Assembly (NCBI RefSeq): GCF_009914755.1 | Contig: NC_060935.1 | Length of the DNA stretch: 64,000 bases | Reading direction: 5' to 3' (one strand) | Origin: the human T2T-CHM13v2.0 reference genome, Homo sapiens | In this document: positions 40,237 to 63,694 of the stretch, piece by piece | Layout of the letters: each line of letters begins with the position of its first letter | Numbering within the stretch: position 1 is the stretch's first letter | Notes under the pieces: generated by a model | What the model was told of the DNA's origin: nothing | Databases searched by the model: none | What the model saw: the letters and a program-made list of their open reading frames with translations, nothing else | Position numbers and translations under genes: made by a program

Positions 40237-40304
40237 ATTGTGGACAAGAACAACCGCTATAAGTCCATAGATGGCTCAGACGAGACCAAAGCCAACTGGA
40301 TGAG
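40237..40304 (+). CDS. PRDM11: PRDM11 coding exon D ([23 protein letters not shown]), middle of PR/SET domain; last exon shared by all predicted isoforms
   Basis: tttctctttcttccag|ATT acceptor, AG|GTGAGC donor (phase 2). Contains the PR motif IDG...NWMR. Confidence 0.95.
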
Positions 40305-42919
40305 GTGAGCCCTGCTCTGCTGATGTCCCGGGGGTCTTGCCTGGCCTCTGGAAAGGAGCCAAGGGAGTGTGTTGGACCTGTGGGAGCTCCAGTGGTGGAG
40401 ACTTCTGGAGGCTGCCGTTTGCAGGGTTTGGATGCATCTAGCTCTGAAGGACCCACCTTTTCCCCTAGGCCTCCATCAGGGGGCTCTAGAGGACGGCGTG
40501 TGGTCAGGCCGTTGGGATGCAGGGACCGCTCGGGCTGCTCACTTGCCAGTGTGTCTGGAGGTCCTGGGCCCCAGGCTCCTGGCAGCATTCCTAGGGAGGA
40601 GGAGGAGACTGTCCCCCACCTAGGACTGTGACACCTCAGAGCAGGCTCCTGCAGGGGTGGTGTGAGAATCGTCCCAGTGCAGCCCCAGCAGTTGTTTAAA
40701 CAGCCTCCATGGAAGAAAGGGCTCTGACAAAGTCTTCAGCTCAGTTTTTGACAGTGTTGCTGCCTATGTTTGAGTACTTTGAAGTGTCAACTTTACCCTG
40801 TTCCGGTGTTTGGGACAGAATTTTGCACCAGAAGTTTTCTTAAATGCCAACCAGAGGAGGCAGGAGACTGGCCCCAGGCAGGGTCACCCAGGGATGGCTG
40901 AGCTGAGCCCAGAACCATGGGTCCAGCGTGATGCTGATGGTCTGTGCCATGTGCGAGGGACTCTGCCTGGTGGGGTTTGTGGACAGGGGTGGGAGATCTG
41001 ACATGCCTTGTTGCCTGCTTGGTGGCCTCTCTCTGGGACCTAGGAGCACTGGCTGGAGATTTGGATCTGGGTGGGAGGGGAAGGAAGCCTCAGATGTCTG
41101 GAGTCAGGGGCACAGCCACACCATGGGCCTGGGGCCCTCTGCCGGCATTTGCACAGTTTTCTGACCCATGAGGCCTTGAGGCTGATGGTGGGATTGTACT
41201 TGGAGAGAGGGCAACTTCCTAAAAAGGAGTGTGCTGTCTTAAACTCGGAGACTTTCTAAGCAAATGAGGAGAAGCAGGTTTGAGGCGTAGAGTATGTGAT
41301 GAGGGCTCCTGTGTCCTTCCCAGTGGCTCCACTGCCCACCTATACTCCTATCAGAGAGTGGCTGAGCAGCAGTTCACACCTCCCAGATTACTTTAGCGTT
41401 CGCCCTCTTATGGGTTAGGGAAGGTGTTCTCATTGCCGTTTGATGGGTGCAGAACAGAGGCTCCAGAGACCAGCGGGCCCCCTGCCTTGCAGTGTGGAGA
41501 ATAGCACCGACTGCCCCCAACCTCCTTGGACACAGCTGATCTGACACTGCCCTGAAAGTGGCCCCAGGGAGGTGGCTTGACACCCTGACTGCCTTCTCTT
41601 CTCACTGCCACGGGGTCCAGGTCAGCTGAGCACTTACAGTTCATCACCTGTGTACTGAGCACCTAGTTTGAGTCAGACTGTGAAATGGGTACCAGGGTGG
41701 ATCACCCAGCCCTGCCCCACCACACCCCATGCCCCACCCCCGCTGGCCCTTCCCGGGCTCACACCTCCTACCACAGAGGTGACTTTCCAGTGTAGTTTTT
41801 GCACTGAGGCACAATGTGCTGCAGAGGCCCAGATGAAAGAGGAGGGGTTCGTTGACATGGGCCTTCAAAGGGGCCAGGATTGTGTCTGGGGACACTGGGT
41901 TGTGGTGTCTAGTCAGGCTGTTGGGCGGCTGCTCAGTTTGGACCCCAAGCCTGTGCTGCTGTGCTGCCTGCCCTGTGGCTGCAGCCTGGCTCCAGGCAAG
42001 CAGGGGAGACCGTGCGTGTGTCCACTTGGGAATCAGGCTTTCTGTGCTATTGCTTTTAAGGCGCCGGGAGCTTTGCCCATAGAACCGAATCTGTTCCACT
42101 CTTTCACCCATCTCTGATCTTTCCCCCTGGGGACAAGGCCTTCTCAAAACCCCAAAAAAGGGGAGCTATCATCCAAACTAACTTATCTATCCTCTGGCAC
42201 CCCGCAGATTGTGACTTAATTGGGCTGGGGATTGGCCTTGGGCCTTGGTATTTTTAAAGCTAGTGATTCTGATGTGCCACTAGCATTGAGAACCACTGCT
42301 CTGTACAGATCTTCATGCCACAGTGGTCAAGCTGAGAGCAGGGCAAGGTCTTGCTTAAGAGCATACAGTCAGGGTAGCAGAATCAGGATTTGAACTCCTG
42401 GCTCTGTAATCCTAGGTCGGTGTTCTTCCTGCTTGTGCACAAGGGACCAGGTGAAGCGTGGCTTCCTGGGCCTGGATGGGCACTGGTGAGCAGGGGTTTG
42501 GGGGTTTCTGCTACTGCCACCTTGCTAGCATGGTTTCTGTCCTGTTCTGCTCCCAGCCTGTCCTGATTCAAGATGGCATCTGGGTAGTCACAGCTGGTGG
42601 GCTCTCATCTTATGACCACTCAAAGAGCAGGTTTGGGTTAGGGATGCAGTTTGTTGCCACAGAGACGCCCCTCCTGTTGCTGTTGGAGTGACGGGAAAGC
42701 TGTTAATCCTGGGAATCCTCCTTTCCCTTCATGTCCAGCTTCCGTGGTGTGGCTCTTTCTGACTTGCAGATGCTCTCCTTTGCACTGTCATGGCACCGCT
42801 TGGGGATGATTGAATGGACTCAGTTAGTTTCTTAACAAAATTAATGGTGGGCCAGGAGGCGAATGGGCACTGTCGTGTTGAGCTTATCTTTATGACAGCC
42901 CCATCTAGGTGATCTGTCT

Positions 42920-43110
42920 GTGGTGGTTCTCAACCGAGCACTATTTTGTGCCCCTGGGGGCATTTGGCAAGGCCAATGTTTGATGGTTGGATGCTATCAG
43001 ATAGAAGCCAAGGATGTTGATAAAATCCTGCATTACACAGGACACCCCTTCCCCCCAACAAAAAATTATCTAGCCCCAACTGCCAATAGTGGCAAGATTG
43101 AGACACCCAC
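42920..43110. mobile_element. MER20 (hAT-Charlie MITE)
   Basis: gtggttctcaacc...ttttgtgcccctgggggcatttggcaa...tgccaatagtggcaagattgaga. Confidence 0.7.
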
Positions 43111-44393
43111 ATTAAGTCCTCCTGATAGCCCTGGACAGTGACACTAGAATTGTCACCCTAGTTTTATGGAGAAGGAGACTGGGTTCACACGAGTCCCATG
43201 GCTTGGCCCAAGGAGACTCAGTCTCTAGTTCCAGGTCTAGTCCCATATTCCTGCCACCATCTTGGACTGGGTAATGAGGCCCCCAGCCTTCTTCCCATCT
43301 TCTGGGCCCTGGTGTTTTGGGTGCTTGAGTAGGAAGGTGAGGGCTGAAGGATGTTGGTGCCGCCGGCCTTCCCCTCTTGGTTTCAGAAGGAAACCAAGGA
43401 GTGAATGCGCTCTGAGCTTTCCTCCATACCCTCATGTCCTCTCTTGGGTGGATTTTTTAACCTTTTATCACTAGTTAAAAGGGTGACAGAGCCACGATGT
43501 GGAGAAATCAAGTTCCAAAGCCAGAGCAGGAGCCAAGTGGGATGGAAGGGCCATGCTGTGCCCCTTGCCCAGGGCCTCTGGCTGCTCAGTTGAGAGGGAA
43601 TCCCAGGTCCCCCTGGTGTCCACCAAAGTGGAACTTGACTCCCTCAGGACAGTCGTGGGCTTCTCAAATTCTACCAAAAAGTCACAGCAGCCCACCCCCG
43701 AAGAAAGCACTCCCATGGGAAGGAAACCTGTTTGCCTGCACATATGCAAAGGTGGGGGCTTGGAGAACTGACCGGGACGGGGAAGGGGAAGAGAGCCACT
43801 AGGCAGAATAAGCTTTCTGTGGCCACACCCTAATCATGGCATTGTCACTGCTACACCCAACGGTAGCCAGTGTAAATAGTTTCCCTGGTTACGTATTCTT
43901 CCGAGCCATTCATTCAGCTGTAGGGCTGTAGGTAAATATCGCTTTATAGAGGCAATGGGCTAATCCTAATTTCAATAAGATCCTTTACTGCTATCTTTAA
44001 GAGATTTTAAGCCCCTTACATCATGATGTGTTTCCCTCCTTAGTAATAAACCCGAAGAGTTGTGGTTGTTATTCTGGACAGGGAGAATAAGGTGTGAAAG
44101 GTTGAACATGAACTGCCCTAGCTCTCACCGCTAGTAAGAGCTAAAGCAGGCCCTGAAACCAAGGCCTTCGACTCTGAGTTCAGTGCTCCCTCCCATGTAA
44201 CGCCGTCTCTTCTTTCCACCCTCCCCTCCGAGGAGTAGTGGAAGGGACCTCTCAGTAGGAGGAGGGTGTGGTGGGGGCCAGGTTGCCCCAGGTGCCTCCT
44301 GGCTCCCCAGCTGGGGGCCAGCAATTAGGAAGGAGAACCACCTGCATTGACGGTCATTTACCCAATTGTGCTTTGTGGGATATTCAACCCAAG

Positions 44394-44815
44394 GAATGTG
44401 GCACACCTGGCTGAGCGTAAGAGGAAGCCCAAGTTCTCCAAGGAGGAGCTGGACATTCTTGTCACAGAGGTGACCCACCATGAAGCAGTGCTCTTTGGGA
44501 GGGAGACCATGCGGCTGTCCCATGCTGACAGGGACAAGATTTGGGAAGGCATAGCCCGGAAAATCACCTCCGTCAGCCAGGTGCCCCGCTCCGTCAAGGA
44601 CATTAAGCACAGATGGGATGACATGAAACGGAGGACCAAGGACAAGCTGGCCTTCATGCAGCAGTCCCTGTCGGGCCCTGGGGCCGGGGGCCGGGCCCCC
44701 ACCATCGTGCTCACGGCCCACGAGAGGGTCATCAAGTCGGCGCTGCTCACGGCCCGTGCAGGGCGCGGCTTCCCCAGGGCGGAACTGGATGGCACCGACA
44801 GCCCTTCGACCAGCT
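44394..44815 (+). CDS. Intron-nested coding exon with a Myb/SANT-like DNA-binding domain (Myb_DNA-bind_5/MSANTD/NAIF1 type); predicted alternative PRDM11 exon
   Basis: Peptide RKPKFSKEELDILVTEV...LFG...KIWEGIARKI...RSVKDIKHRWDDMKRRTK fits the family pattern. Acceptor ccaag|G AAT is phase 2 (matches donor 40304), with a weak pyrimidine tract. Donor AGC T|GTGAGT is consensus. CpG-rich, codon-like composition. Confidence 0.85.
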
Positions 44816-45183
44816 GTGAGTATCACCAGTCCCCCCCGCCACCCAGCCGGCTGCCTGCCCCCCAGCTTACAGTCCACAGTCTCCCACCGACTTTCCCTCT
44901 GGTTCTCTCCTGTCCCTCTCTGTCCAGCCCACTCTTTCCATCCTCCCCTCCTTCTCCCACTCTTCTCCTCTCCATCCCTTTTTGCATTCATTCTCGAATA
45001 TTTACTGAGCATCTCCGTGCCAGAGCCGTGCTAGGAGCTGGGAAGACAGCTGTGTGTAAACCCCACGCAGGCCCTGCTCTTGGGGAGACCCTGGACTCCT
45101 AGGAATAAACCAACGTTAAATAATTGCACGAGTAAACTGGAAACGAAGGGATGGAGGACACAGGAGTCCAGGAGGTCCCGAGA

Positions 45184-45339
45184 GCAGGGCTGACTTCATG
45201 AGCATGCAACCTGAACAGTCACAGGGGCCGCGGGGTTTCAGGCTCTGCTGTCGCCATCTGGACATTCTTCATAGTTTTTGAGCCAGGGGCCCCACGTTTT
45301 CATTTTGCATTTGACCCTGCAGGTTATGTAGCAGCTCTG
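45184..45339. mobile_element. MER91-like hAT MITE
   Basis: cagggctgacttcatg...ctgctgtcgccatctgg...ggggccccacgttttcattttgca...ttatgtagcagctctg. Confidence 0.55.
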
Positions 45340-47226
45340 TCTGAGAGTTAAGGAGTGGGTAAAACTGGCTCCACTGGGGACTGGGGAGGGCTCCCTGAAG
45401 AAGTCCAGCGGACTAGGATGTGAAGAGTAAGAGTTAACCAGGCCAGGCAGCAGCGTGGGGCGCGGAGAAGGGGAGGGGAGGCGCGCAGGCAGAGAACAGC
45501 ATGTACGAGGCCCCGCATCAGGAAGGCGCTTGGCACGTTCCAGGAACAGTGAGAAGCCAGGAAAGCCCAAGTGTAGCAGCGCGGGGGAGGGGGCTGGAGA
45601 CGAGGCGGCCAAGCTGTGAAGGCCCGGGCCGGGCCATGGAAAGATCAGTTCCTTTCTGTGTCTGGTCCTGACTGCTTTGTTCCTCTATTATTACTCCCCT
45701 GCCTGAGCCACGCTGCCTGCCCCCACTTTTCTGTGTGCTGCCTCTCAGCTCCCTCTCCATCCTCCTGGCTGCTCCGCCACCCGCTCCCCACCCCTCTTCT
45801 CCCTCTGTACTTGTCCCTGCCTTTCCTCTCTACTTCCTGTGTCTCACATGCACTTTGAAGCCAGGGCCCCAGCGGCCGAGGCGGGTGTCCCTTGGGGCTG
45901 GAGTTCTAGTTGGGGCTCAGCAGAAGGGGGAGCACTAAAGGCCTCCGCAGGGACTGCAACCCTTCCTTTCCACTTCTGCACATCTCCCCCGTGCCCCGCC
46001 AGCTGCAGTCCCCACTAGAGGCCGTCTGCCTGACCGGCTCGTGAGTGGTGGGAGCCAGGCAGGAGGGGCCCCGGGGAAGCAGCCGTGGCTCAGCCCATGG
46101 GAAGGTGCTTTGCAAAGACTCACTTGCACCTTCCCTTCCCGGGCCCCCTGCCATTGTGATCCACTTGCTTCCTGTTTGGCTGGGGCTCCTGACAGGTGGC
46201 AGTTCACAGAGTCAGATGTTTAGGACTGGAAAAGAACATGGAGACCATTTAGTTCAACTTCCTTGCAATGCAGAAAGTAAGCTCTGAAAACCAAGGTGGC
46301 CCTGAGCTCAATTCAGAAGCAGGACTTGAACCCGGGTCTGCTGGCTTCCTGTGAATCAGTGTTTTCCTAAGTCTTAAGAGGATTCCACCCCGTGATAAGA
46401 AAAAATGGGGGGGTCAGCATCCAGTAAAGCCTGTTCCCTGCATCCTGCTCCGCTCACCCCTCCATCTCCCTGAGACTGAATGTAATGAGGCCACCAAAGG
46501 TAACCTGGGCTGGCAGGGAGCCCGAGTGTGCCATCAGGCAGAGCCCGCTCACCCCCATGGCAGGCTCACAGCCCTCCTTTTCCTGGCAGTGGCCAGCTGC
46601 GGCAGCACTCGGCCAGGGGCTTGGCAGAACGGGGACCTGGGAGGGAAGGAGCAGCATCACCTCGCCGGGTCTCACTCCTTCCAACACTGGCCATGCTAGA
46701 CAGGTCTCTGGGATCTCAGGGGATGGCTGCTGTCCCACCAAACACTGCCAAGAGACACAGGACTCTTACCAAGCTGGCCCAAGTGAGCCCCCAGGACCCC
46801 TGGGAGGCATGAGGTAACTGTAAGATAAACCTGTCTGTCCTCCCCATCACCTTCCTGGGGGGTGGTTCTGAGTTGAGTCCGCAGATCCAGGCAGGGAGGG
46901 CTTGCCTGTCAGTAGGGTCAGCCCATACATCATTTAATCCTGCCACAGGGATCAGCCCATACCCTTGGTCACCAGAAAGCAGGACCCACATGTGCAGAGG
47001 CTGGGCCCCCTCCCTGTGTCCGGCTGCAAGGAGCAGTCTGTCCGATGGCCCCTGTGCGGTCAGATGCTCCTGGATGGGAGCACGATGTGACTGAACTGGA
47101 AGCCTGCCTTGGGGGACAGGGGGACAGCAGGGCTGGTTGCAGAGGTGGCTCTCCTGCTCTGCACTGTCCTGCCAGTTTCTTCAGCCTGTCAGCATGTGCT
47201 GCAGTGATTTAAAGATGCAGATTCCA

Positions 47227-47432
47227 TATTAGTAGTCTTTTATCCCTCACCCCCTTCCCACTCTTCCCCCCAAGTCCGCAAAGTCCGTTGTATCAATCTT
47301 ATGCCTTTGTGTCATATGGCACAGTGTATACTGCTTGGGTCATGGGTGCACCAAAATCTCACAAGTCACCACTGAAGAACTTCCTCATGTAACCAAACAC
47401 CACCTGTACCCCAATAACTTATGGAAAAAAAA
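47227..47432 (+). mobile_element. Short L1PB 3' end with 5' inversion, TSD TGCAGATTCCA
   Basis: Antisense L1PB 3'UTR piece (~47227-47317) joined to a sense piece ending in an A-tail. TSD at 47216-47226 and 47436-47446. Confidence 0.8.
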
Positions 47433-48004
47433 GTGTGCAGATTCCAGCAAGGCCACAAGATGGCCCCAAGCAATGCAGACGTGGCCTCAGAAAGTCTGGT
47501 GCTCAGAGGGCCAAGAGCGTCTTAGTACCTTTAGGCAGGTGCCGCTCCTTCAGCGTTACAGAGCACCTTCATGTTTGTCATCTTGTTTATGACTCTTCTT
47601 AACAACCCAATTAGGTAGCCAAGCGGTTCGATGTGTAGACAGGGCAGTCGTTATCATTGCAGAAAGTGAGGTGCAGAGAGATGAACTGACTGCTGAGGTC
47701 AGGAGCTGCTGGGTTGGCACGCAGCCGGTGGGCCACGGTCTCCAAGTCCCCTGGCCTGGGCTCTTCCCCACTAGAATAGAGCTGTTCCGTTGAGAGGAAG
47801 AGGAACTTCCCCCCAGGGATGCTGGGCCCACGCACCTCAGGGATTTGGGGAACGTGGATTTCTCTATGGGCGGGGGCCAAACTAGACCGCAGGGTGGCAG
47901 GGCAGGGGGATACTCAGGTGTTTTTCAGGGGCAGGGCCAACCCCTGGGCCTCCCTCCTTCTCCCTTTTGTAACCACTTTTCCATCTTTGTTTCTGTCCCC
48001 CAAG

Positions 48005-48579
48005 ATGATGAAGATGAGGAGGCGCCTGGGCCCTCAAGGCAGCCTCTTCGGGTGCCTCTGCAGCGGTCTCCGGAGGAAGAGGCCCACCTGGCCAGGCCCG
48101 CCCTGCTCCGTTCATCCTCCTCCTCAGACCAGTCTGAGACGGTGGGCCCCAAGCCAGAGGCCCTGCCCCATCCCTCGCCCCAGGCCCAGGCTGCCTGCAG
48201 GACCCCTCGGCCGCACCCCAGCCCACCCACCACGGGCCTTGACTGGCAGCTCCTCCACGTCCATGCCCAGCAGACCGAGGTGTTCCGGCAGTTCTGCCAG
48301 GAGCTGGTGACCGTGCACCGGGACATGGCCAACAGCATGCACGTCATCGGCCAGGCCATGGCCGAGCTGACCAGCCGTGTCGGTCAGATGTGCCAGACGC
48401 TGACAGAGATCCGGGATGGGGTTCAGGCATCTCAGCGGGGGCCAGAAGGGGCAGACCCTACGGGCTCCACTCCCCAGGCCACCCAGGCCCAAGCCCCCCT
48501 GCCAGAGCCCCCACCAGCTTCCCCAGCATCAGCCCCCACACGGACTACCAGGTCTCGGAAGAGAAAGCACAATTTCTAA
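48005..48579 (+). CDS. Terminal coding exon of the Myb/SANT-like isoform: acidic/Pro-Ser linker, amphipathic helical region, C-terminal basic RTTRSRKRKHNF
   Basis: Long pyrimidine tract + cccaag|AT GAT. Phase 1 matches donor 44815 (T+AT=Tyr). Open to TAA at 48577-48579. AATAAA at 50247. Confidence 0.8.
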
Positions 48580-49433
48580 CCCAGCTAGTCTGCACTAGGA
48601 GGAAGAGTCATGGAGGAGGGATGTCTGGCCTCACAACAGGGGCCAGTCTTTCGTGTCCAGGAACAGGATCGATGACCCTTGTAGGACACTGGGGGCGCTG
48701 TTACCTCCTCACCGAGCGCAGGTCGCTGCCCTGTGGTCTAACAGAGCATGTATTCAGACCCGCACCCTCATCTTTGGCGGATGCTGAAGATGCAAGAAAA
48801 GCCACCTGCTTGATGCTTGCTTGGCCTGGAGATCGTTCTCCTCTTGGTCTGTGTCCCGTGGCGGCAGGCCTTGCAGGGAGGGGGGCGCAACAGTGGGGAG
48901 CATCCGAATGGAGTCCCACTTTCCAACCTTGGGGCTGCTGCATCGGCCTCCCACATGTGACCTCCCAGGCCCTGATGCTGCTTCTTTTGAAGGGGGTGAG
49001 GCCTGATGGGCAGGTCAAGTCGGTCCTTCAGGGAGGGGTCTACCCTCCCTTGCCCGGGGGTGGTGCCCGCCTTGGCCCTCCGCTTGCCCTTGTGCGCGTG
49101 CTCAGCTGCTGTGCTTGCCTTTTTTGGAGTGGGGAGAAGAATGGGATGACGTCGGAGGAAGGAAAAGACTGTCTTGCATTCATAGAGAGCACTTTATGCT
49201 TTTCCTCGCCCTTGCAGAGTCTGGGTGGTCTCAGTGGGGGCTCAGGACAGTCAGCTCAAGACAGCCAAGTCAGGTATTATTATGATCATTTTTATCATCA
49301 TCATCTGTATAAGACAAATGACACAGCCAGTTAGTGAGAGGGCCAGGACTGGAAGCCAGGGTATCGGTTTTCCCAGCTCCCCTGTCAGAGGCCAGATCTG
49401 GAGTAGTGGGAAGAGGACGCAGGGGGCAGGTCT

Positions 49434-49477
49434 TGCCCCTTGCCAGGCCTCTGCCCCTTGCCAGGCCTCTGCCCCCT
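49434..49477. repeat. 18-bp tandem repeat (TGCCCCTTGCCAGGCCTC), ~2.4 copies
   Basis: Seen directly; lies in the predicted 3'UTR of the Myb isoform. Confidence 0.8.
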
Positions 49478-50246
49478 GTATCTCTGCTTCTGCCTCAGCT
49501 GTCCTGGGTGAGGTGGGAGGCACCTAGCATTTAGCAGGTGATTCTCCCACCCTGCCCTGGCTCTATGGCTCATAGCCAGTGGCTTGGAGAGGCAGGGCCA
49601 GATCTCAGGAGTGGAGGGCAACCTCTTCCCTGGCTTCTAAAAGAATCCAGAGCCCAGTGGGGCTCATGTCCCATTCCAGGTTCCAGCATGCCTTGCCTCT
49701 GCTTGCTCGGGCTGCCTACGCACTAGCTACATACACCTCTAGCTTCATGTTTCATGTTGGAGTGTGGGGAGAAAACTGGGTTCTTAGCATTAGAGAGGGA
49801 AGTGGCAGGTGGCAGATACAAGCTTAGCTCTGACCTGGGTGCACCTCAGCTCTGTGTCCTTTTTTTTCCCTGACCTGAAGCTGACCCCAGCAGAAGTCCC
49901 CCAGCCAACCCCTCCACCCAACAACCCCCCACCCTCCCATCCTGCCCCCAGCCATAGTGGGAGCTGGGAGGATTGCAGCATCTAGTGCCTTCCAAGGCTG
50001 TTCCTGGAGCGCTGCTTGTAAACCCAAGCCAAGCTTTGTCCCACGTAGGGAGAATGGAAGGTGACTGCAATGTCCCTGTGCCTTTGGCTCCATCTCCCCA
50101 TTCTGTGGTTCTTTGGGGGTTCCTGCTTCCCTCAAACTGAACACTCTCCTGTCCAACAGCCTGATGGCTTAATTATTGCCTGGAATTGCCCGGCCTCCGA
50201 TGCTGGAATCAAAGATTGCCTTCCGAAGTATTTTTGTTAAGATGGC

Positions 50247-50252
50247 AATAAA
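50247..50252 (+). terminator. Polyadenylation signal for the Myb/SANT-like isoform
   Basis: First AATAAA I could find downstream of the stop at 48579. Followed ~45-70 nt later by a T/GT-rich tract (tctttctttggtgtgtattctctttc). Confidence 0.6.
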
Positions 50253-52916
50253 AAGAAATCAATCTCACTCTTTGAACACACCCAGTGTCCAGGATCTTTC
50301 TTTGGTGTGTATTCTCTTTCTTCGTTTCCTGTGAAAACCTCGAGGACCCCAAAGCAGGGGTTAGATGTTTAAGGAAAAGCAGGTTGGTGAGAAGGGCTCA
50401 AGTGCCCCTTGATTTCCCTGATTCTATAAACTGCCAGATTCCCTGTATCCAGCACCATGCCAGGCCCTCGGAGGAAAGGAAGGGCATGCATGCACGAAAC
50501 CACTCAGTTATATTTCATTTCTCTGCTCAAAAGTGAGGTGTTGCTAAGTCAATTTTACCTTTTGTTCCCTAAAAGTAAGCGAGAAGTTCTGGAAAAACAA
50601 TCACCGTTTCGGACAGGAGGCTCTAGAAGGGTCAGGGGCTGTCCATGTGCCAGTGCACTTTAGGGGCCACCTGGAGGCATGACCCTCCCCACCAATCCAG
50701 GTGTCTGTGTGTCTGGCACTGGCAAGGCTCTGCCCACCTAGATCTGAGGCTTCTCAAAGTAACCAAAGCTGCCTCCTCTGCCAAGAGGAAGCCTCCTCAC
50801 CTGTGCATTGCCCTGGCTTAATACCAGTCTCAGAGAGCTTCTCTCAGGCAGGAAATCCCCTAGTCTTGCCCACAGATCCCCTTTCTAGAAGGTTCTAACT
50901 TGCCATCCTCCACAGTTCTTGGCCAAAAAGCATGGCCATAGAAATGGAGGACTACCCAATTTCCGAGAGATGCAAAGATGTCGTGAAACCATTCCCAGGG
51001 CCTTCTCTCCCAAGGTCAATGTATGAAGCAGTGACTGGCTGGCTGCTCTCTCTCTTCCTGGGGAGGGAAGGAGCCAAATTGGAAGCTGTAAAACTGAAAT
51101 GGAAGTCAGAGCAAAAGGGACAGTGAGGACTTGTCAACTTGGGATGGAAAAGATTTTCAGTTTCTGTTTCTTGGCTTCAGTGGGGATTGTTGGGCTAGCA
51201 CATTAAAACAGGAAGAGGAAACTTGGGTGAGAGACAGAAATGAATTGGAAGAGGGAGGCCTCTAGCCATGACCAGGTGACCATCTGGTGGGTGGATGTGT
51301 GACCCAAAGCCCCTCCTAGCCCGGAGACCTATGCATGTGAGAACACAGAGCCCAGCCTCTTCTCAGTCGGTCTTTTCCTAGTTCTGCCTCCTTAACTGGG
51401 GCAGCTTCCTTTGTATTGAAGATACCCACTATGCAATAGTGTCTGAGCCTGGCCTAGTCAATTCCCTCCAGCAAAATGGATGCCCTGTGTTATGTTTTCT
51501 TTGCGTTAGAAACAATAGTCATGTGCTGACCCAGCTAGAAAATATGATGCACTTGATAAGACACAGTGGGTGAGGTCTGAGAATTGTTGTCTTAGTACTT
51601 ACCTATCCAGTCCCCAAGGTCAGCTGGGAGGTTGGAATAAAAACAATCCAGGATCATCATGACAGGTTTAGTCCAGAGCTCTCCACCGCCATCAGCAGCA
51701 CCACCACCTTCCCCTTGATTGCTCCAAAGGTCCCAAATTCTGTGGGTTGGAGTTGAAATGCCTCAATAAGCACTAGCATTTGCAGAACAGTCTCAGCCAG
51801 GCATTCTCTGTGCCTTCTCTCAAGAGGTAGTGACCTGGTAACACTTCAAACCTCCTTGAAAGAGCTGCTCAGCCACAGTGGATAGATTTTGCCCCTCCTG
51901 GTAGCCTTCCACTCCTTGGGGAGGGCTTCTGATTTCTGCAGCCATGTAATGAATGGAACAGGCACAGTTCTTCATAAAGGGGTTGTTGTGAATGGGGACA
52001 GAAGGGTTCTGGGGGGTGGTCGAGCCAGCAGGTGTTAAGGCAAAACACTTAAAAGCAGGAGATCTAATCAGAGGTAACAGGTCTGGGGACCTAGCTGGCT
52101 TCATTTAGCTTTACCTCTTAAATGGTATAACATAAACATCTTGTCAGGGGAATGGGTTGTGATTCACCAAGAGTTGCCATATACATTGTATTTCAAATGC
52201 TAAGTTTCAGAACAACAAATACAACAAAATCTGAATAAGCATTGATCTGCCTTTGAAAATACTTTGTGATTTATACAACGCCTTGAGGTTAGCTTTCCAA
52301 ATATTGATTCTTGATGGATAGAAAAAGACCAGAAGATGGAAAGTTAAATTGACTTGAGTCTTTCTAAACCTTTTGACACACCCTAGAAGTTGCTCTTTTG
52401 AATAAATAAATCCCAGATAGGAATGTATTTCTCATCTAGCTTTTTCTCTTGATGTCAAGTGTCAGAGAAATAATTCTAGCTTTTAGAGGTTGGTGGTTGT
52501 TTAGAAACTGGAAGAAAAAAAGGAGAAGACAGTATTCTCCAATCATAGTGCTATGATTCAAGTGAGTCTTGTGAGAAAAAAGACGAATGAATGGTTTCCC
52601 TTTTGTATCTGGGAGCAGGAAAGTTTGGAACAACTTCTATTCTGTGCTAACCGCAAGGTTGATTATTTTTGGATGTCAAATCCTAGACTCTCACTAAATT
52701 GGGGACTGGAAATATTTTGCATATTCAGAAGAAATCTCAGCTATGGAGAAAAGACTGACTCACAGTTGTAGAATTGAGATTGGGAATTATTAATTTGGAG
52801 TGACTTCTCTCACTCCAAATTAAAGGAAAAGGGGCTCTTTTCCTTTCTCTTAAGTCCTTTGTTAATAACATCCTGGCTGGGTGCGTGGAAATCACCCTGT
52901 GGTCTTCACTACTCAG

Positions 52917-55104: not shown

Positions 55105-55292
55105 GTACGTGGTCATCTCCCGGGAGGAGAGGGAGCAGAACCTGCTGGCGTTCCAGCACAGTGAGCGCATCTACTTCCGGGCGTGCAGGGACATCCGGCC
55201 TGGGGAGTGGCTGCGGGTCTGGTACAGCGAGGACTACATGAAGCGCCTGCACAGCATGTCCCAGGAAACCATTCACCGCAACCTGGCCAGAG
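55105..55292 (+). CDS. PRDM11: PRDM11 coding exon E: C-terminal half of PR/SET domain ([40 protein letters not shown])
   Basis: ccag|G TAC acceptor (phase 2), G|GTGAGT donor (phase 1). Contains the EQNL, IYFRA.RDI.PGE.L.VWY PR motifs. Confidence 0.95.
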
Positions 55293-57087: not shown

Positions 57088-57162
57088 TGGTCTTCTCCAG
57101 AGCACCTGAAGCTGCATCATCCTCCATGAGCCCCAAGACCACAGGGGATTGCTCAGAGAAGG
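57088..57162 (+). CDS. Candidate symmetric 75-nt cassette exon (VVFSRAPEAASSSMSPKTTGDCSEK)
   Basis: Strong acceptor tccttttcttcccctcag|TG. Phase 1-1 and stop-free, so it fits between exons E and F. Donor AGG|GTGTGA is only moderate. Confidence 0.4.
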
Positions 57163-58568
57163 GTGTGAGCTTTCTGGAGTGGTTCAAAGGAGGCGTGTCA
57201 GACAGACTTGAAAGGAGATACACCGAGACATATGAAGATACAGGAGGGAAGAGGGTCTATTCCTGGTCAGGCTGAGCAGTAAGAAATAGGAAGGAAATTG
57301 AAAGTCACAGTGGGGCAGTTTCACAGCTGTGGGTGATCCTGAAGCCCTTGGGAATGGTCATGGAGCTCAGTGGCTTTTAAATGTGTGCCTCTATAGCCTG
57401 TAGCTTCAGCGGACTCTGGTTAGTGGTGTCCCAGATGGGTGTGCCATTGCTGCTCTGAAAGGGAGATCCCCTATGCCCAATCACTCTTGGTCTTACATAG
57501 AAGGAGGTTTCTTTGTAATTGGAGGTTGGCACCCTGATGGAGTCCAGAGCATGAATTATTAGTTCTTATTAAGTAGGGATATTGGTTGTTGCCAGAAGTC
57601 TTCCTGAAGAGAGTGTAAACTATTCCTTTGTGGTTACCTTTTAAGAATAGATTGCATCTAAAGCTCGCATTCAAACAATTTATGTTATTTGACCTACTTT
57701 GATTCACTAATTTACTTTGAGGTTTTCTTTGTTTTTGTTTTCCATGTTGTATGGAGGCTTTGGAACCAATTTCATGATGCTTAAAGGTCTCTTTTGGCCT
57801 GTAGATTTTTCTGAAAGCCTTAAGTCCACAAAGATCATACTAAGAAATTTGAACAACGTTGTTTTCAAACAATGACGAGGAATCTCTGGTGATTTCTAGG
57901 CTTGATTTCCCGATGTCCTCAGTTGTTTGCTGCCTGATTGTCCCATGAGGAAAGGAAAATGTGGCTCTTGATTTTTAGAGATTTTCAATGGGCAAGTGCT
58001 GCATCTGATCTGTAAGACATACAGGTGGCATTTTCAAGTTATCTCCATCTCTCCCCTTTCTGTAGCTCAGCTGATATAGAAGTGCAGGCTGTGGGGAGCT
58101 GCCTGGGTTCCAGAAGCCTTGGAGATAAAGTTGTTCCTTAGGTATTCATGTGAGGACAGAAAAGGTGCATCCTGAATAGATAACTCCCTTTTGTGCTGTA
58201 ACCTAAAGGAAACCTGAAGTCAAACATGGGGCAGGGCACAGCACCCATACCAGCTATGGGAAACCAGACGTGGAACATCTGGACTGCTTATTGGCAAACC
58301 CTTGGCCTTCAATCAGAAGTCTTTTGCAAATGGAGCCATCAGAAGCCTAAGTACGTTTTAGTTCAAGTCATTGTTCAGCGGCACATCACCTAGGGCCCCT
58401 GCACCTGGTCTAGGAAACCTTTGAGATTTCTGAGTTCCATAGGCTACTTTCAGGACCCTCTAAGGGCTGAAGAGATTCCTCTGCCTTTTTAGCATCTCTC
58501 ACCAGCAAGCATCAGCACTTCTGTGGCAGTTTATGAAACTATGTTGGTAATTTTTAAAGAATCAGGCT

Positions 58569-58858
58569 AGCTGGGTGCCATGGCTCATGCCTGTAATCTC
58601 AGCACTTTGGGAGGCCAAGGTGGGCAGATGGCTTGAGCCTAGGAGTTTGAGACCAGCCTGGGCAACATGGCGAAACCCTATCTCCACAAAAAGTACAAAA
58701 ATTAGGGTGTGATGGCTTGTGTCTGTAGTCCCAGCTACTTGGGAGGCTGAAGTGGGGGGATCACTTGAGCCTGGAAGGTGGAGGCTGCGTGAGCACCACT
58801 GCACTTCAGCCTGGACAACAGAGTGGGTCTCTGTCTCAAAAAATAAAAATTAAAAACA
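58569..58858 (+). mobile_element. AluJ
   Basis: Diverged Alu with J-type features (gcttgagcctaggagtttgagaccagcctgggcaac). Confidence 0.9.
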
Positions 58859-59751
58859 AGGAATCAGTCTAAAATAATTTATGGTTGAGGAGCTCACCAA
58901 AGTCTTTGAAACAATTGAAAGTAATTCAAAGTGAATTGAGGTAATTCACATGATAGAAAGAAATAGGCAAGGAAACGTCCTTTGAATTGCCAAGTGAGGA
59001 GACATGGCTATATTTCCTGACTGCTTTGGGTCATTATGGCTACCTTGTCCTTTATCTTGTCGGAGGCTGCCATGTTGGAGCCCTCAGCGCCATAGGTCTC
59101 CTTGTCTTCCCCTTTCTTCTGCCCTTAGTCGTCAGTGAGAACAACAGAAGTTCAGATCATGCTTTCTCACATGTTCCTAGTCTGCTGATTGCTGGGAGAA
59201 TTAGAAAGGACAGTTGCCATAGGATGGACTTTGCCTTAAGTAGGCTGTCTCCAGAGCAACGAAGGAGGAGGAAGGAGTGAGGCCTATGGTGTTTCATGTG
59301 TACCTTTTACCAAGTCGAAGCAGCCATCTTGTCATTGCTAGGGCTGAGGGGAAGCTGCAAAGGTTGGGGGAGTTGATACTCACTTGGCTCTGAGGTATGT
59401 TCCCACCACCCAGTGTGATTAAGTGGGATGTTGTTTTCTAGGGTCATAGGAAAGAATGTTCAATTACTCTCCCTTATAGATTTCTCTTAACTTATAACCG
59501 TAGAGCTTGTAGACATGAGGCTTCTTGGAAACTGTCTCTTTCTAAAAGGTCTTTCCACCGTTCAGGTCCTATGAGTCTAGCTCTGATGGACCACTGAGTG
59601 ATTCGTATCTCCCCTTTGCAACACTTGCCCCAAAAGCCCAGATCTAGAGGGATGTGTCAGGTGACCTAACAGGAGGCCTGCTTTGTTTTCTGTTGGTTTC
59701 TCCAATTTGGGGGTTTTCCCCATTTCCTTACACCCTGGTTTTCCTTCCTAG

Positions 59752-60443
59752 GAGAGAAGAGGTTGCAGAGGGAGAAGTCTGAGCAGGTTCTGGATAACCC
59801 AGAAGACCTGAGGGGTCCCATTCATCTCTCTGTGCTGAGACAGGGCAAAAGTCCCTACAAGCGTGGCTTTGATGAGGGGGATGTACACCCCCAAGCTAAG
59901 AAGAAGAAAATTGACCTGATTTTCAAGGATGTTCTGGAGGCCTCACTGGAATCTGCGAAGGTGGAAGCCCACCAGTTGGCCCTGAGCACCTCACTGGTCA
60001 TCAGGAAAGTCCCCAAATACCAGGATGACGCCTACAGTCAGTGTGCAACAACAATGACCCATGGTGTGCAGAATATAGGCCAGACCCAGGGGGAGGGGGA
60101 CTGGAAGGTCCCCCAGGGGGTCTCCAAGGAGCCAGGCCAATTGGAGGATGAAGAAGAGGAGCCTTCATCATTCAAGGCCGACAGTCCTGCCGAGGCCTCC
60201 CTTGCATCTGACCCTCATGAACTTCCCACCACCTCTTTTTGCCCTAACTGTATTCGCCTAAAGAAGAAGGTTCGGGAGCTCCAGGCAGAATTAGACATGC
60301 TTAAGTCTGGGAAACTTCCTGAGCCCCCCGTATTGCCACCACAGGTACTGGAGCTCCCAGAGTTCTCGGACCCTGCAGGTAAGTTGGTTTGGATGAGATT
60401 ATTGTCGGAGGGCAGAGTACGCAGTGGGCTGTGTGGAGGGTAG
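59752..60443 (+). CDS. PRDM11: PRDM11 coding exon F. Internal donor after 60378 is used for the long isoform; read-through to the stop at 60443 gives the 477-aa short isoform
   Basis: ttccttcctag|GA acceptor, GCA G|GTAAGT donor at 60378/60379. ORF has a KKKK basic patch and CPNC followed by a heptad-like segment. Summed CDS 1434 nt = 477 aa + stop. Confidence 0.93.
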
Positions 60444-60602
60444 CCTAAAGCTCTCTGTGGAAACCACCTTCCGGGAGACCTGAGGAGTGTAACGTGGAGG
60501 CGGCTACCTCCGTGGGTGGGAGCCCAGGTCCTCAGTGTCTCTGGCAGACCCATCGGCAGCTCTGCCAGGTGCTCCATGTGTTGCCCTTGTATCCTCCTTG
60601 TC

Positions 60603-60608
60603 AATAAA
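60603..60608 (+). terminator. Intronic polyadenylation signal for the short PRDM11 isoform
   Basis: AATAAA 160 nt after the stop at 60443, followed by GT-rich tgtgtgctgtgttcttg at ~60631-60647. Confidence 0.65.
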
Positions 60609-61529
60609 GGAAGTTCCGCTGCAGAAGGGGTGTGTGCTGTGTTCTTGACCCGTTGCCTTTCTCTGGTACTGGTGTCTTACCCCAAAGCCCAATTTCTAAA
60701 CCCAGTCTTTCTCTGTCCCCAGTCTCAAGCAGGGTGTCCCACTGGAGAGATCTCTTGGCTTCCCTAACTTAGTCCAGGAACACAGCCTTGTTCTTCTCTT
60801 CCTGAATCTCTGTCCTGCCACACATGGTCCCAGTTCCCTAGCCTGGAGTTCTGGAAGGATGGAGAGTGAGGGGATCCAGGCCATTCACCTGCATGGCTTT
60901 GCCCTATTCTGTTGGCTACCTGGATTTCTAGAGTTGGTCGACAACTAGGCAGGTGTTCTAGTTCATATCTGCAGCTGAGGGAGACTGTTTACATAGCACT
61001 TACTCTTTTAACCACATCCCTTAGCTCAGAATGAGGTGTTTCTTGTATTCAAAGCATGCGTCTGAACTAAACTGCATTTTGATCCTGAAATCACTTGGGG
61101 CCATATCCAAGATGCCTTTGTTCACATTAATGAAGGGCAAATGAATCCCAAGTCCTTGCCATATAACTTTGGAATGTGTGATGTGCTTTTCCTCCTCCAT
61201 TAGATCTACTCTCCTAGCTTGTGCTGTCCAGTTGATAGGGGGCATTTAAATCCCTCAAACACCCACACATGGAGGGCAAGGGCAGGCAGCCTGAAATCTG
61301 GTGGGTGTGACAAGGCAACCGTGGACAATCACAGGGAGAGTAAAAGTCACATGGGCAAGCAGGAGTGCTCATAAACTAATTCTGGGCTGGGATTCAATCC
61401 ATCATAGGCTTCCACGGACTTCTGTTTCCCATGGTGTGGCACCTACCTTCCAGGAGTGTTTCCTGTGGATTTTGGAAAAGCCTGTTTTCTCCCCCAGGTA
61501 TAAATGTTTCTTTCCCATTTGTTTTTCAG

Positions 61530-63694
61530 CCTCAGAAAGCATGGTCTCCGGCCCCGCCATCATGGAGGATGATGACCAGGAAGTCGATTCAGCAGATGAA
61601 TCTGTCTCCAATGATATGATGACAGCGACGGATGAGCCCTCCAAGATGTCATCGGCCACCGGGCGCCGAATCCGGCGCTTTAAGCAGGAATGGCTGAAGA
61701 AGTTCTGGTTCCTGCGGTACTCCCCAACCCTCAATGAGATGTGGTGCCACGTCTGCCGCCAGTACACGGTGCAGTCCTCACGCACCTCGGCCTTCATCAT
61801 TGGCTCCAAGCAGTTTAAGATTCACACCATCAAACTTCACAGCCAGAGCAACCTGCACAAGAAGTGCCTGCAACTGTACAAGCTCCGCATGCACCCGGAG
61901 AAGACAGAGGAGATGTGTCGCAACATGACCCTGCTCTTCAACACCGCCTACCACCTGGCCTTGGAGGGCAGGCCCTACCTGGACTTCCGGCCCCTGGCGG
62001 AGCTGCTGAGGAAGTGTGAGCTCAAGGTGGTGGACCAGTACATGAATGAGGGAGACTGCCAGATCCTCATCCATCACATCGCCCGGGCCCTGCGGGAAGA
62101 CCTGGTGGAGCGCATCCGCCAGTCACCTTGCCTCAGCGTCATCCTGGATGGGCAGAGCGACGACCTGCTGGCCGACACGGTGGCTGTCTATGTTCAGTAC
62201 ACCAGCAGTGATGGGCCCCCGGCCACAGAGTTCCTGTCCCTGCAGGAGCTGGGATTCTCTAGCACAGAAAGCTATCTCCAGGCACTTGACCGGGCCTTCT
62301 CGGCCTTGGGCATCCGGTTGCAGGATGAAAAGCCAACTGTTGGCTTGGGTGTAGACGGAGCCAACATCACAGCCAGCCTCCGTGCCAGCATGTTCATGAC
62401 CATCCGCAAGACGCTGCCCTGGCTGCTGTGCCTGCCCTTCATGGTGCACCGGCCCCACCTGGAGATCCTGGATGCCATCAGCGGGAAGGAGCTCCCATGC
62501 CTGGAGGAGCTGGAGAACAACCTGAAGCAGCTGCTGAGCTTCTACCGCTACTCACCGCGCCTCATGTGCGAGCTGCGGTCCACGGCGGCCACCCTTTGTG
62601 AGGAGACAGAGTTCCTGGGCGATATCCGGGCAGTGCGGTGGATCATCGGCGAGCAGAACGTCCTCAACGCTCTCATCAAGGACTACCTGGAGGTGGTGGC
62701 CCATCTCAAGGAGGTCAGCAGCCAGACCCAGCGGGCAGACGCCTCGGCCATCGCACTGGCCCTGCTGCAGTTCCTCATGGACTACCAGTCCATCAAGCTC
62801 ATCTACTTCCTGCTGGACGTGATTGCTGTGCTCTCGCGTCTGGCCTACATCTTCCAGGGCGAGTACCTGCTGGTGTCCCAGGTGGATGACAAGATCGAGG
62901 AGGCCATCCAGGAGATCAGCCGGCTGGCTGACTCCCCGGGAGAATACCTGCAGGAGTTCGAGGAGAATTTCCGAGAGAGCTTCAACGGGATCGCCATGAA
63001 GAACCTCAGGGTGGCTGAAGCCAAGTTCCAGTCCATCAGGGAGAAGATCTGCCAGAAGACCCAGGTCATCCTGGCTCAGAGGTTCGACTCCCGCAGCCGG
63101 ATCTTTGTGAAGGCCTGCCAGGTGTTTGACCTGGCTGCCTGGCCCAGGAGCAGTGAGGAGCTGATGAGCTATGGCAAGGAGGATATGGTGCAAATATTTG
63201 ATCACCTGGAGGCCATCCCGACCTTTTCCCGGGATGTCTGTAGGGAAGGGCTGGACCCCCGGGGTAGTCTGTTGATGGAGTGGCGAGAACTCAAGGCCGA
63301 TTACTACACCAAAAATGGCTTCAAAGACCTGATCAGCCACATTTGCAAGTACAAACAGAGGTTTCCACTCTTGAACAAGATCATCCAGGTTCTTAAAGTC
63401 CTCCCCACTTCCACCGCTTGCTGCGAGAAAGGCCGCAATGCCCTCCAGCGAGTTCGCAAAAACCACCGCTCCCGCCTGACCCTGGAGCAGCTTAGCGACC
63501 TGTTGACAATCGCTGTAAACGGACCGCCAATCACCAACTTTGATGCCAAGCGAGCCCTGGACAGCTGGTTTGAGGAGAAGTCTGGGAACAGTTACGCGCT
63601 GTCTGCAGAAGTCCTCAGTAGGATGTCTGCGCTGGAGCAGAAGCCAGCACTACAGACCATGGACCACGGGACGGAGTTTTACCCCGACATTTAG
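61530..63694 (+). CDS. PRDM11: PRDM11 long-isoform terminal exon: domesticated hAT-transposase-like module (TTF-type zinc finger, RNase H-like core, hAT C-terminal dimerisation region; ZNF862-like)
   Basis: gtttttcag|CC acceptor (phase 1). Single 2165-nt open exon with FKQEWLKKFWFL...WCHVC...H...H, ILDG, VDGAN, VRW, STACCEKG and RSRLT motifs. Summed CDS 3534 nt = 1177 aa + stop. Confidence 0.92.

What the first reader, a model, noticed from the sequence alone, without database searches (positions are those of the whole stretch)
40237..63694. One N-terminus, alternative transposon-related C-termini: a splice/poly(A) switch between a Harbinger-type Myb module and a hAT transposase module
Seen: the shared exons can end in three mutually exclusive ways, each with its own stop. 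These are the Myb/SANT form (516 aa, AATAAA 50247, half PR domain), the short form (477 aa, AATAAA 60603, whole PR) and the hAT form (1177 aa, whole PR). Knowledge: host-domain/transposase fusions made by alternative splicing are known (SETMAR, CSB-PGBD3, KRAB-transposase fusions). Inference: capture of modules related to two different DNA-transposon superfamilies as alternative ends of one PR/SET gene would be unusual. It would let the same zinc-knuckle N-terminus be targeted by different DNA-binding domains, and the Myb form could act as a natural 'PR-minus' antagonist, a recurring theme among PRDMs.
Basis: partly seen in the sequence, partly recalled or inferred. Interest (0 to 1): 0.85.

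Follow-up and report, generated by a model that had tools for sequence, protein, structure and literature searches.

The report
PRDM11's two transposon-derived alternative ends
Human PRDM11 really can end in three ways: one end is a complete, extremely conserved hAT transposase and another is a Harbinger-type Myb DNA-binding protein, an overlooked double example of a known way of building genes from transposons.

Summary
Joining the annotated exons gives 516, 477 and 1177 residues, each with its own stop, and AATAAA at 50247 and 60603.

- **hAT end:** The last exon (61530-63694) is a whole hAT transposase. A profile of its relatives hits Hermes (E 6e-11), and its AlphaFold model hits only Hermes at the top. 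The zinc finger and the D-D-E/D acidic triad are kept in 124 of 125 orthologues. It is 82% identical between human and gar, and the PR+hAT fusion is present across ray-finned fishes.
- **Myb end:** The Myb end (44394-44815 plus 48005-48579) encodes a complete Myb_DNA-bind_5 protein, conserved from frog to human. Its closest human relative is the chr19 gene I take to be MYPOP.
- **Harbinger origin:** This is plausible and already noted in print as "data not shown". No transposon sequence could be compared here.
- **Short form:** It uses intronic polyadenylation. It is the 511/477-residue protein that older PRDM reviews treated as canonical.

PRDM11 is a new member of the host-transposase fusion genes. 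Function and isoform regulation remain inferred.

The parts
40237..40304 (+). Last exon shared by all three forms. Its donor at 40304 is the first branch point: splice to 44394 or to 55105.
   Evidence: phase 0 in, AG/GT; donor matches 7 of 9 consensus positions.
44394..44815 (+). Myb exon. The Myb_DNA-bind_5 trihelix lies at about 44422-44652, followed by a conserved short helix. The acceptor is weak.
   Evidence: PF13873, E 3e-21, aa 10-86; polypyrimidine tract 59% against 82-86% for the four other acceptors; three helices at pLDDT about 90; no ATG in the open frame before the domain.
48005..48579 (+). Coding part of the terminal exon of the Myb form. It holds an acidic stretch, a disordered linker, one long helix (about 48238-48435), a basic C-terminal motif (48541-48576) and the stop at 48577.
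   Evidence: The long helix has pLDDT 91-96. The C-terminal 12 residues are 80% identical on average across 17 amniote models.
48580..50280 (+). 3' UTR of the Myb form, with AATAAA at 50247-50252 and a GT-rich downstream element.
55105..55292 (+). Exon encoding the second half of the PR domain. It is absent from the Myb form.
   Evidence: PRDM2_PR positions 73-121 of 123, E 3.2e-18.
59752..60378 (+). Exon shared by the short and hAT forms. Its donor at 60378 is the second branch point.
   Evidence: donor CAG|GTAAGT matches 9 of 9 consensus positions; no Pfam family.
60379..60623 (+). Intronic read-through that ends the short form. It adds 20 further codons, then the stop at 60441, AATAAA at 60603 and the annotated end at 60623.
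61530..63694 (+). Single exon encoding a complete hAT transposase. The zinc finger is at 61709-61882. The acidic triad codons are at 62147-62149 (D206), 62354-62356 (D275) and 63425-63427 (E632). The hAT dimerisation region is at 63347-63511.

Best explanation
PRDM11 is a host-transposase fusion gene with two transposon-type modules used as alternative 3' ends.

**1. hAT end.** The main terminal exon is an intronless, full-length hAT transposase. It has a CCHH zinc finger, an RNase-H-like catalytic core with an alpha-helical insertion, and a C-terminal dimerisation region. It was fused to the PR domain before ray-finned fishes and tetrapods split, and has since been under very strong constraint. 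The D-D-E/D acidic positions are kept, but the Cys of the CxxH motif is lost.

**2. Myb end.** Inside the intron that splits the PR domain lie two exons encoding a complete Myb_DNA-bind_5 (Harbinger-type) protein. It consists of a trihelix, an acidic stretch, a long helix and a basic C-terminus. A weak acceptor sits one codon upstream of what is still an ATG outside eutherians. This links the module to the exon-4 donor and gives a protein with zinc knuckle, half a PR domain and Myb.

**3. Short form.** Cleavage at an intronic poly(A) site after exon 59752-60378 gives a protein with PR only.

**Shown:** reading frames, splice and poly(A) signals, family and fold membership, conservation, and spliced contigs in other mammals.

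**Inferred:** competition decides the isoform. At the first branch point the weak Myb acceptor with its poly(A) site competes against the strong exon-5 acceptor. At the second, splicing at 60378 competes against intronic polyadenylation. It is also inferred that the zinc finger and the trihelix give the isoforms different DNA targets, and that the Myb form lacks a foldable PR domain.
For: **Frames and signals:**

**hAT membership**
- 2832 representative relatives at E<=0.001.
- Of 46 aligned members, 39 match zf-C17orf113, 33 match Dimer_Tnp_hAT and 14 match DUF4371.
- The family profile hits Hermes transposase at E 6e-11, with the D, D, CxxH, RW and E motifs aligned.
- The AlphaFold model has pLDDT 85 and pTM 0.78.
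- All eleven rows listed at Foldseek ranks 1-12 are Hermes chains; the best has E 1.8e-9 and TM 0.57 on the target.

**hAT conservation (125 sequences)**
- D206 and D275 are kept in 125 of 125.
- Position 632 is D in 115, E in 9 and N in 1.
- W370 and the four zinc ligands are kept in 125 of 125.
- Human against gar is 82% identical, bowfin 83%, paddlefish 82%.
- The best 120 hits are all 97-100% identical, and every named row is a placental mammal.
- PR+hAT models are present in teleosts, gar, bowfin and paddlefish.

**Myb module**
- PF13873, E 3e-21.
- One search lists orthologues in placentals, echidna, koala, birds, turtles, alligator, tuatara, squamates and the frog Ascaphus.
- The trihelix is 93% identical on average across 18 amniote models.
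- The ATG after the acceptor is present in bird, alligator, tuatara, echidna and frog rows but is GTG in human.
- Spliced contigs P0020 (1637 nt) and P0028 (3488 nt) join PR exons to the Myb exons.
- Human paralogues: chr19 at E 7.5e-19 and 41% identity, two on chr8, one on chr9 and one on chr11.

**Print:** Etchegaray 2022, passage seen.
Against: - No human RNA data could be examined. The human junction 40304>44394 rests on the RefSeq exon list supplied with the finding.
- At least 14 of the 120 rows annotate the Myb module as a separate ~337-residue 'MYPOP-like' gene.
- A 99%-human-like contig (P0005) keeps intron-4 sequence in front of the Myb exon.
- The Harbinger label rests on homology to host genes said in print to be Harbinger-derived. 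No transposon protein, terminal repeat or adjacent transposase supports it here.
- In PRDM11 itself the Pfam hAT dimerisation match is below the cut-off (18.0 against 21.4 bits).
- The Foldseek superposition is loose (TM on query 0.35-0.43, rmsd 8-20 Angstrom).
Confidence: 0.75

Rival explanations
1. The Myb module was not captured from a transposon by PRDM11. It was an already domesticated, free-standing MYPOP-like host gene, possibly a whole-genome-duplication twin of the chr19 gene. It came to lie in the PRDM11 intron and was later tied in by a new acceptor. It would then be Harbinger-derived at most at one remove.
For: - Its nearest human relative is a host gene on chr19: 41-43% identity, E 7.5e-19. 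A tree joins the two with 81/78 support.
- The module has its own ATG outside eutherians and its own stop.
- Many pipelines model it as a separate gene.
- From recall, not tested: 11p11.2 and 19q13.3 share several paralogue pairs.
Against: - The tail exon has no detectable match at the chr19 locus. The best tblastn E over the 13.3 kb examined was 0.64.
- A 1.36-kb gap between the two fetched chr19 stretches was not examined.
- The tree has only 10 rows and long branches.
- Fish and shark loci could not be inspected, so the order of events is unknown.
Confidence: 0.3
2. The Myb exons form a separate nested gene, and the PR-Myb chimeras are annotation or read-through artefacts of no consequence.
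For: - Stand-alone ~337-residue models exist in many species.
- P0005 is an RNA-like contig that begins in intron 4.
- The Myb acceptor is weak.
Against: - In human the open frame has no ATG before the Myb domain.
- No CpG island lies upstream; CpG observed/expected is 0.16-0.24 across 42-44.5 kb.
- The acceptor position and frame are kept from frog to human.
- Contigs of 1.6-3.5 kb join PR exons to Myb exons.
Confidence: 0.08
3. The Myb domain is an ordinary cellular Myb/SANT-like domain with no transposon ancestry.
For: - No terminal repeats, target duplication or adjacent transposase are present.
- The best fold matches are cellular factors, and they are not significant: GT-1 at E 0.5 and Zeste at E 0.9.
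- The published claim is 'data not shown'.
Against: - The domain fits PF13873 far better than classical Myb: E 3e-21 against 0.0037.
- Its human relatives include the loci I take to be NAIF1, TSNARE1 and MSANTD4. Etchegaray 2022 treat these as Harbinger-derived.
- The nearest Atlas clusters are 'NAIF1-like' and 'MSANTD4 family' clusters of arthropods and molluscs, at score 0.95. This is a lead only.
Confidence: 0.12

Closest known systems
SETMAR (SET domain + mariner transposase) and CSB-PGBD3
   Same: A host chromatin or repair domain is joined to a whole transposase ORF by splicing into a transposon-derived terminal exon. Host-only and fusion transcripts coexist. This mechanism is as summarised in the Cosby et al. 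preprint (passages seen).
   Different: Those fusions are primate-specific and involve mariner or piggyBac. The PRDM11 fusion is with a hAT transposase, is at least as old as bony vertebrates, and is the main rather than the minor form.
ZNF862 (my reading of the chr7:151.04 Mb locus)
   Same: It is the closest human paralogue of the hAT exon: 29% identity over residues 34-689, E 1.3e-85. It has the same zinc finger plus hAT dimerisation architecture. NCBI names fish PRDM11 models 'zinc finger protein 862'.
   Different: From recall, the N-terminal partner in ZNF862 is KRAB, whereas here it is PR/SET. The gene name for the chr7 locus is recalled from its position, not given by a tool.
NAIF1, TSNARE1, MSANTD1-4, MYPOP (Harbinger Myb-like derived genes)
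   Same: They share the Pfam family PF13873. They appear as human paralogues. Like TSNARE1, PRDM11 joins the Myb module to an unrelated host part.
   Different: In PRDM11 the module is an alternative terminal cassette that cuts a PR domain in half. Its partner gene also carries a second transposase from another superfamily. No binding to HARBI1 is known for it.
PR-minus isoforms of PRDM1, PRDM2, PRDM3 and PRDM16
   Same: They give a shorter product lacking an intact PR domain alongside a PR-plus product. PRDM2, 3 and 16 are documented in a passage seen; PRDM1 is added from recall and the title and abstract of a paper listed.
   Different: Those arise from alternative promoters or early splicing and keep the same DNA-binding zinc fingers. 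Here the PR domain is truncated at its middle and the DNA-binding module is exchanged.

Membership tests
hAT transposase superfamily | RNase-H-like catalytic core interrupted by an alpha-helical insertion domain (Hermes fold) | tested here: met
   AlphaFold model with pLDDT 85. All eleven rows listed at Foldseek ranks 1-12 are Hermes chains; the best has E 1.8e-9. The next fold, ISCth4 transposase, is at E 1.3e-3.
hAT transposase superfamily | D, D, E catalytic triad in the conserved hAT blocks | tested here: met
   D206, D275 and E632 sit in the columns that the family profile aligns to the D, D and E motifs of Hermes. Those Hermes motifs hold its catalytic residues by recall. Across 125 orthologues the counts are D 125, D 125, and E 9 / D 115 / N 1.
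hAT transposase superfamily | CxxH motif and RW motif of the catalytic region | tested here: inconclusive
   H306 is kept in 122 of 125, and W370 in 125 of 125. The Cys is absent in 125 of 125 PRDM11 orthologues (I, V, F, L or M instead), although 43 of 46 family members have it.
hAT transposase superfamily | C-terminal hAT dimerisation domain (PF05699) | tested here: inconclusive
   PRDM11 alone scores 18.0 bits against a 21.4-bit cut-off. However, 33 of 46 relatives pass, and the profile aligns this region to Hermes at E 7e-7.
hAT transposase superfamily | Mobile element: terminal inverted repeats, 8-bp target duplication, several copies | tested here: not met
   There is one copy in the human genome and only three distant paralogous loci. 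Repeats were not searched for, because neutral flanks cannot survive since the fish-tetrapod split. It is a domesticated gene, not an element.
Harbinger Myb-like protein (domesticated) | Myb/SANT trihelix DNA-binding domain of the PF13873 type | tested here: met
   E 3e-21, 75.6 bits against a 21.7-bit cut-off. The model has three helices at pLDDT about 90.
Harbinger Myb-like protein (domesticated) | Groups with transposon-encoded Myb-like proteins in a phylogeny | not testable with these tools
   No Harbinger transposon proteins are held, and by the paper read mammals have no such elements. Only host paralogues could be compared. The published statement is 'data not shown'.
Harbinger Myb-like protein (domesticated) | Encoded next to a DDE_Tnp_4 transposase within one element | tested here: not met
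   The only intact DDE_Tnp_4 gene in the genome lies 1.39 Mb away on the same chromosome.
Host-transposase fusion gene born by alternative splicing (Cosby et al.) | Transposon-derived domain in exons separate from the host domain, with host-only and fusion transcripts coexisting | tested here: met
   One search gives the exon structure. The short form (host only), the hAT form and the Myb form are all in the supplied RefSeq exon list. Spliced contigs appear.
Host-transposase fusion gene born by alternative splicing (Cosby et al.) | Splice acceptor supplied by the transposon itself | not testable with these tools
   No consensus of the source elements is available. It is only seen that the Myb acceptor lies one codon before the module's ancestral ATG.

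The most novel reading that the evidence does not exclude
The hAT module of PRDM11 is still a metal-dependent DNA-cutting or strand-transfer enzyme. Its acidic triad, RW motif and zinc finger have been held fixed for more than 400 million years, at 82% overall identity between human and gar. PRDM11 is a paralogue of the recombination-hotspot gene PRDM9. It would then couple a chromatin-directed PR domain to a nuclease, and the Myb and short isoforms would be natural nuclease-free versions. As a side reading, the Myb isoform may be a partner or competitor for HARBI1, which lies 1.39 Mb away.
Probability: 0.12. Interest if true: 0.85.

Novelty: new member of a known kind. Interest (0 to 1): 0.5.

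Why it matters
PRDM reviews state that PRDM11 is the one family member without zinc fingers or a DNA-binding domain (passages seen). That picture comes from the 511/477-residue short form.

The main transcript instead carries a zinc finger and a full hAT transposase. This module is among the most conserved parts of the protein. A second isoform swaps in a Harbinger-type trihelix.

This changes what should be tested about how PRDM11 finds its targets, and which isoform earlier over-expression and knock-out work addressed. It also adds an ancient SET-family/transposase fusion, with an intact acidic triad, to the short list of candidates for domesticated transposases that may still act on DNA.

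Tried and rejected
- **Complex prediction.** The verdict was 'no answer' (score 0.00), and the alignment was not used. This is neither for nor against binding.
- **Tail exon relatives.** No human paralogue was found. There was no match at the paralogue loci, including 13.3 kb of the chr19 locus; the best E there was 0.64. The Atlas gives NAIF1-type clusters only at 0.76-0.78, which is a lead and not evidence.
- **Single-sequence search of solved structures.** The hAT exon found nothing. The Myb exon found only Zeste, at E 0.33.
- **Fold search with the Myb model.** Nothing was significant.
- **Stand-alone promoter.** No CpG island lies upstream of the Myb exon. No ATG lies in the open frame upstream of either transposon-type exon in human.
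- **Literature.** Nine full-text searches were run. They found no paper linking PRDM11 to hAT, and only one linking it to Harbinger.
Its table of fusion genes could therefore not be checked and may list PRDM11.
  - Sinzelle et al. 2008 is not held.
- **Rejected: all three modules in one protein.** Of the 120 rows, 12 put PR, Myb and hAT into one protein. Of the three I read, two use an internal donor that in human is 48551|48552 and matches only 5 of 9 consensus positions. It is absent from the human exon list, so I treat these rows as probable gene-prediction joins.

Full report
**Observation**

The window holds the 3' two-thirds of human PRDM11. In one search a script joined the annotated exons. 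From the start at 17288 the three forms read:
- 516 residues (stop at 48577),
- 477 residues (stop at 60441),
- 1177 residues (stop at 63692).

All internal junctions are AG/GT. AATAAA lies at 50247 and 60603, 28 and 15 bases before the annotated ends. Each is followed by a GT-rich stretch. They are 2 of 9 AATAAA in 40237-63999.

Pfam places the PR zinc knuckle (below the Pfam cut-off) and PR positions 6-48 in exon 18382-18644. PR positions 73-121 of 123 fall in exon 55105-55292. Orthologues of the Myb form cover only PR positions 4-77 (up to 81 in the frog), against 7-121 in the long form. The description is correct in every checked detail.

**The hAT end**

The last exon (61530-63694) encodes 720 residues in one piece. 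On its own it passes Pfam only for zf-C17orf113 (E 6.8e-9). The hAT dimerisation match is under the cut-off, and no solved structure is found by sequence. Family evidence is nevertheless clear:
- An exhaustive search found 2832 representative relatives at E<=0.001, of which 125 are at E<=1e-30.
- I aligned 45 of them with the human exon. Of the 46 members, 39 match the zinc finger, 33 match Dimer_Tnp_hAT and 14 match DUF4371.
- The profile hits Hermes transposase at E 6e-11. The first and second Asp, the CxxH, the RW and the Glu motifs are all aligned.
- The AlphaFold model has pLDDT 85 and pTM 0.78. All eleven rows listed at Foldseek ranks 1-12 are Hermes chains; the best has E 1.8e-9.

Human PRDM11 keeps D206, D275, E632, H306 and R369-W370. 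It has Phe for the Cys of CxxH and Arg for a family-wide Phe. That the aligned Hermes motifs hold its catalytic residues is from recall.

**Age and constraint of the hAT end**

The best 120 of 732 hits to the human exon are 97-100% identical, and every named row is a placental mammal. A representative at 75% identity proved to be a teleost model with PR plus hAT, which NCBI names 'zinc finger protein 862'. Its 120 best relatives include teleosts, gar, bowfin, paddlefish and one frog, all with PR and the zinc finger.

I compared 125 sequences: the human exon, the 119 other rows, the query itself, alligator, a thrush, a macaque cluster and a dugong cluster.
- Both Asp are invariant.
- The third acidic position is D in 115, E in 9 and N in 1. 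The E rows are all six tetrapod rows, paddlefish and two rows I did not identify.
- W370 and the four zinc ligands are invariant.
- The CxxH Cys is absent in all 125.
- Identity to human over residues 43-703 is 82% for gar, 83% for bowfin, 82% for paddlefish, 94% for alligator and 98% for dugong.

The fusion therefore predates the split of ray-finned fishes and tetrapods, and the whole transposase is under strong purifying selection. Baker et al. (passages seen) place the birth of PRDM11 from PRDM9 before the ancestor of jawed vertebrates. Whether sharks have the hAT end could not be checked.

**The Myb end**

Exon 44394-44815 matches Myb_DNA-bind_5 at E 3e-21. Classical Myb matches only at 0.0037. 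The next exon codes for 190 more residues with no Pfam family.

Across 19 amniote models, mean identity by region is:
- trihelix 93%,
- short following helix 77%,
- linker 50%,
- long helix 64%,
- last 12 residues, a basic motif, 80%.

The model shows three helices at pLDDT about 90, a disordered linker and one 68-residue helix at pLDDT 91-96. Fold matches point to the GT-1 and Zeste trihelix domains but are not significant.

This is the layout of a whole Harbinger Myb-like protein as described in the introduction of Etchegaray et al. 2022 (passages seen). The same paper names PRDM11, MYPOP, ZSCAN20 and TSNARE1 as further putative Harbinger-derived genes, 'data not shown'.

In the human genome the exon's relatives are:
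- chr19:48.73 Mb (41% identity, E 7.5e-19),
- two places on chr8,
- chr9:140.27 Mb,
- chr11:106.0 Mb.

From position and reading frames I take these to be MYPOP, TSNARE1, NAIF1 and MSANTD4. These names are recalled, not given by a tool. A small tree joins the PRDM11 module to the chr19 gene with 81/78 support.

**How the Myb module is tied in**

One search returned 133 hits, of which 120 are listed. They include PR+Myb models from placentals, echidna, koala, birds, turtles, alligator, tuatara, squamates and the frog Ascaphus.
- At least 14 rows model the same module as a separate ~337-residue 'partner of profilin-like' gene.
- 12 rows put PR, Myb and hAT into one protein.

Reading the sequences shows that outside eutherians the first or second codon after the acceptor is ATG. 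In human it is GTG, and the open frame has no ATG before the domain. No CpG island lies upstream. The acceptor has a 59% pyrimidine tract against 82-86% for the other four.

Unnamed contigs of 1637 and 3488 nt (P0020, P0028) encode PR exons joined to the Myb exons. This can only come from spliced RNA or a retrocopy. A 99%-human-like contig (P0005) is spliced across the Myb intron but keeps intron-4 sequence in front of the exon.

I read this as a once free-standing ORF recruited by a weak acceptor placed just before its start codon. In eutherians it has lost its own start. Whether it arrived as a transposon or as a duplicate of a MYPOP-like host gene is open. No data on fish were obtainable: the 120 rows show no PF13873, but the length window of that search excluded ~515-residue forms.

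**The short form**

The donor at 60378 is a perfect CAG|GTAAGT. Reading through it gives 20 more codons, a stop, and AATAAA at 60603.

A 2013 review table (passage seen) lists the then canonical UniProt PRDM11 as 511 residues, with PR at 149-264, and an isoform lacking residues 1-34. That isoform equals 477 residues. The PRDM literature's 'PRDM11 has no zinc fingers' thus describes this truncated form.

**Mechanism**

Shown: there are two branch points. At the exon-4 donor the choice is between the weak Myb acceptor with its own poly(A) site and the strong exon-5 acceptor. At 60378 the choice is between splicing to the hAT exon and intronic cleavage.

Inferred:
- The balance is set by splice-site and poly(A)-site competition.
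- The hAT zinc finger and the trihelix give different DNA targets.
- The Myb form cannot fold a PR domain.

**Comparison and novelty**

The kind is known: host-transposase fusion by alternative splicing, as in SETMAR, CSB-PGBD3 and KRABINER (Cosby preprint, passages seen). The preprint's main text has no occurrence of 'PRDM', and its supplement could not be seen.

The isoforms are annotated, and the Harbinger hint is in print. I found no paper linking PRDM11 to hAT in nine searches.

What I did not find described:
- the hAT identity and depth of conservation of the main C-terminus, with an intact acidic triad;
- the pairing of two superfamilies as alternative ends;
- the loss of the Myb module's own start codon in eutherians.

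I rate it a new member of a known kind, of moderate interest.

Noticed in passing
G000 chr11:46,759,719-46,771,834 (loci L015, L016), 1.39 Mb from window 44394: The only intact DDE_Tnp_4 (Harbinger transposase) gene in the genome lies 1.39 Mb from the PRDM11 Myb exon. I take it to be HARBI1 by recall; it is listed with PRDM11 in an 11p11.2 deletion table. For any one locus such closeness has odds of about 1 in 1000. With about ten Harbinger-Myb genes the odds are about 1 in 100. A shared ancestral element is conceivable.
   Followed up: partly
window 44394-44400: In the non-eutherian tetrapod rows read, an ATG sits one or two codons after the Myb acceptor. In human it is GTG, so the human module has no start of its own.
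   Followed up: yes
window 48551|48552: Alligator and yak models (P0076, P0017) use an internal donor here. It turns the Myb module into an in-frame 323-codon insert in the middle of the PR domain (422+547 = 969 nt). The human site matches only 5 of 9 consensus positions. These are probably prediction joins.
   Followed up: partly
window 44329-44393: The intron sequence just before the Myb acceptor is conserved at the protein level between squamates, birds and mammals. It starts with ATG in some species. A 99%-human-like RNA-type contig (P0005) includes it. This could be a splicing signal or a second, intron-4 start.
   Followed up: partly
window 63425-63427 (E632): The third acidic residue of the triad is Glu in tetrapods and paddlefish but Asp in gar, bowfin and teleosts. 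Across 125 sequences the counts are D 115, E 9 and N 1.
   Followed up: yes
window 59752-60623: The older 'canonical' 511-residue PRDM11 of UniProt and the reviews equals the short intronic-polyadenylation form plus a 34-residue N-terminal extension. A 2026 review table lists PRDM11 as 'PR domain + zinc fingers' without comment.
   Followed up: partly
G000 chr5:36,036,298-36,038,686 (L011, L013) and chr6:56.89 Mb (L012): These are further distant relatives of the hAT exon in the human genome. The chr5 one is in two pieces. The chr6 ORF of 739 residues matches no Pfam family.
   Followed up: no
rows: NCBI names most ray-finned-fish PRDM11 orthologues 'zinc finger protein 862', after the hAT paralogue rather than the PR domain. 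This may hide them from PRDM surveys.
   Followed up: no
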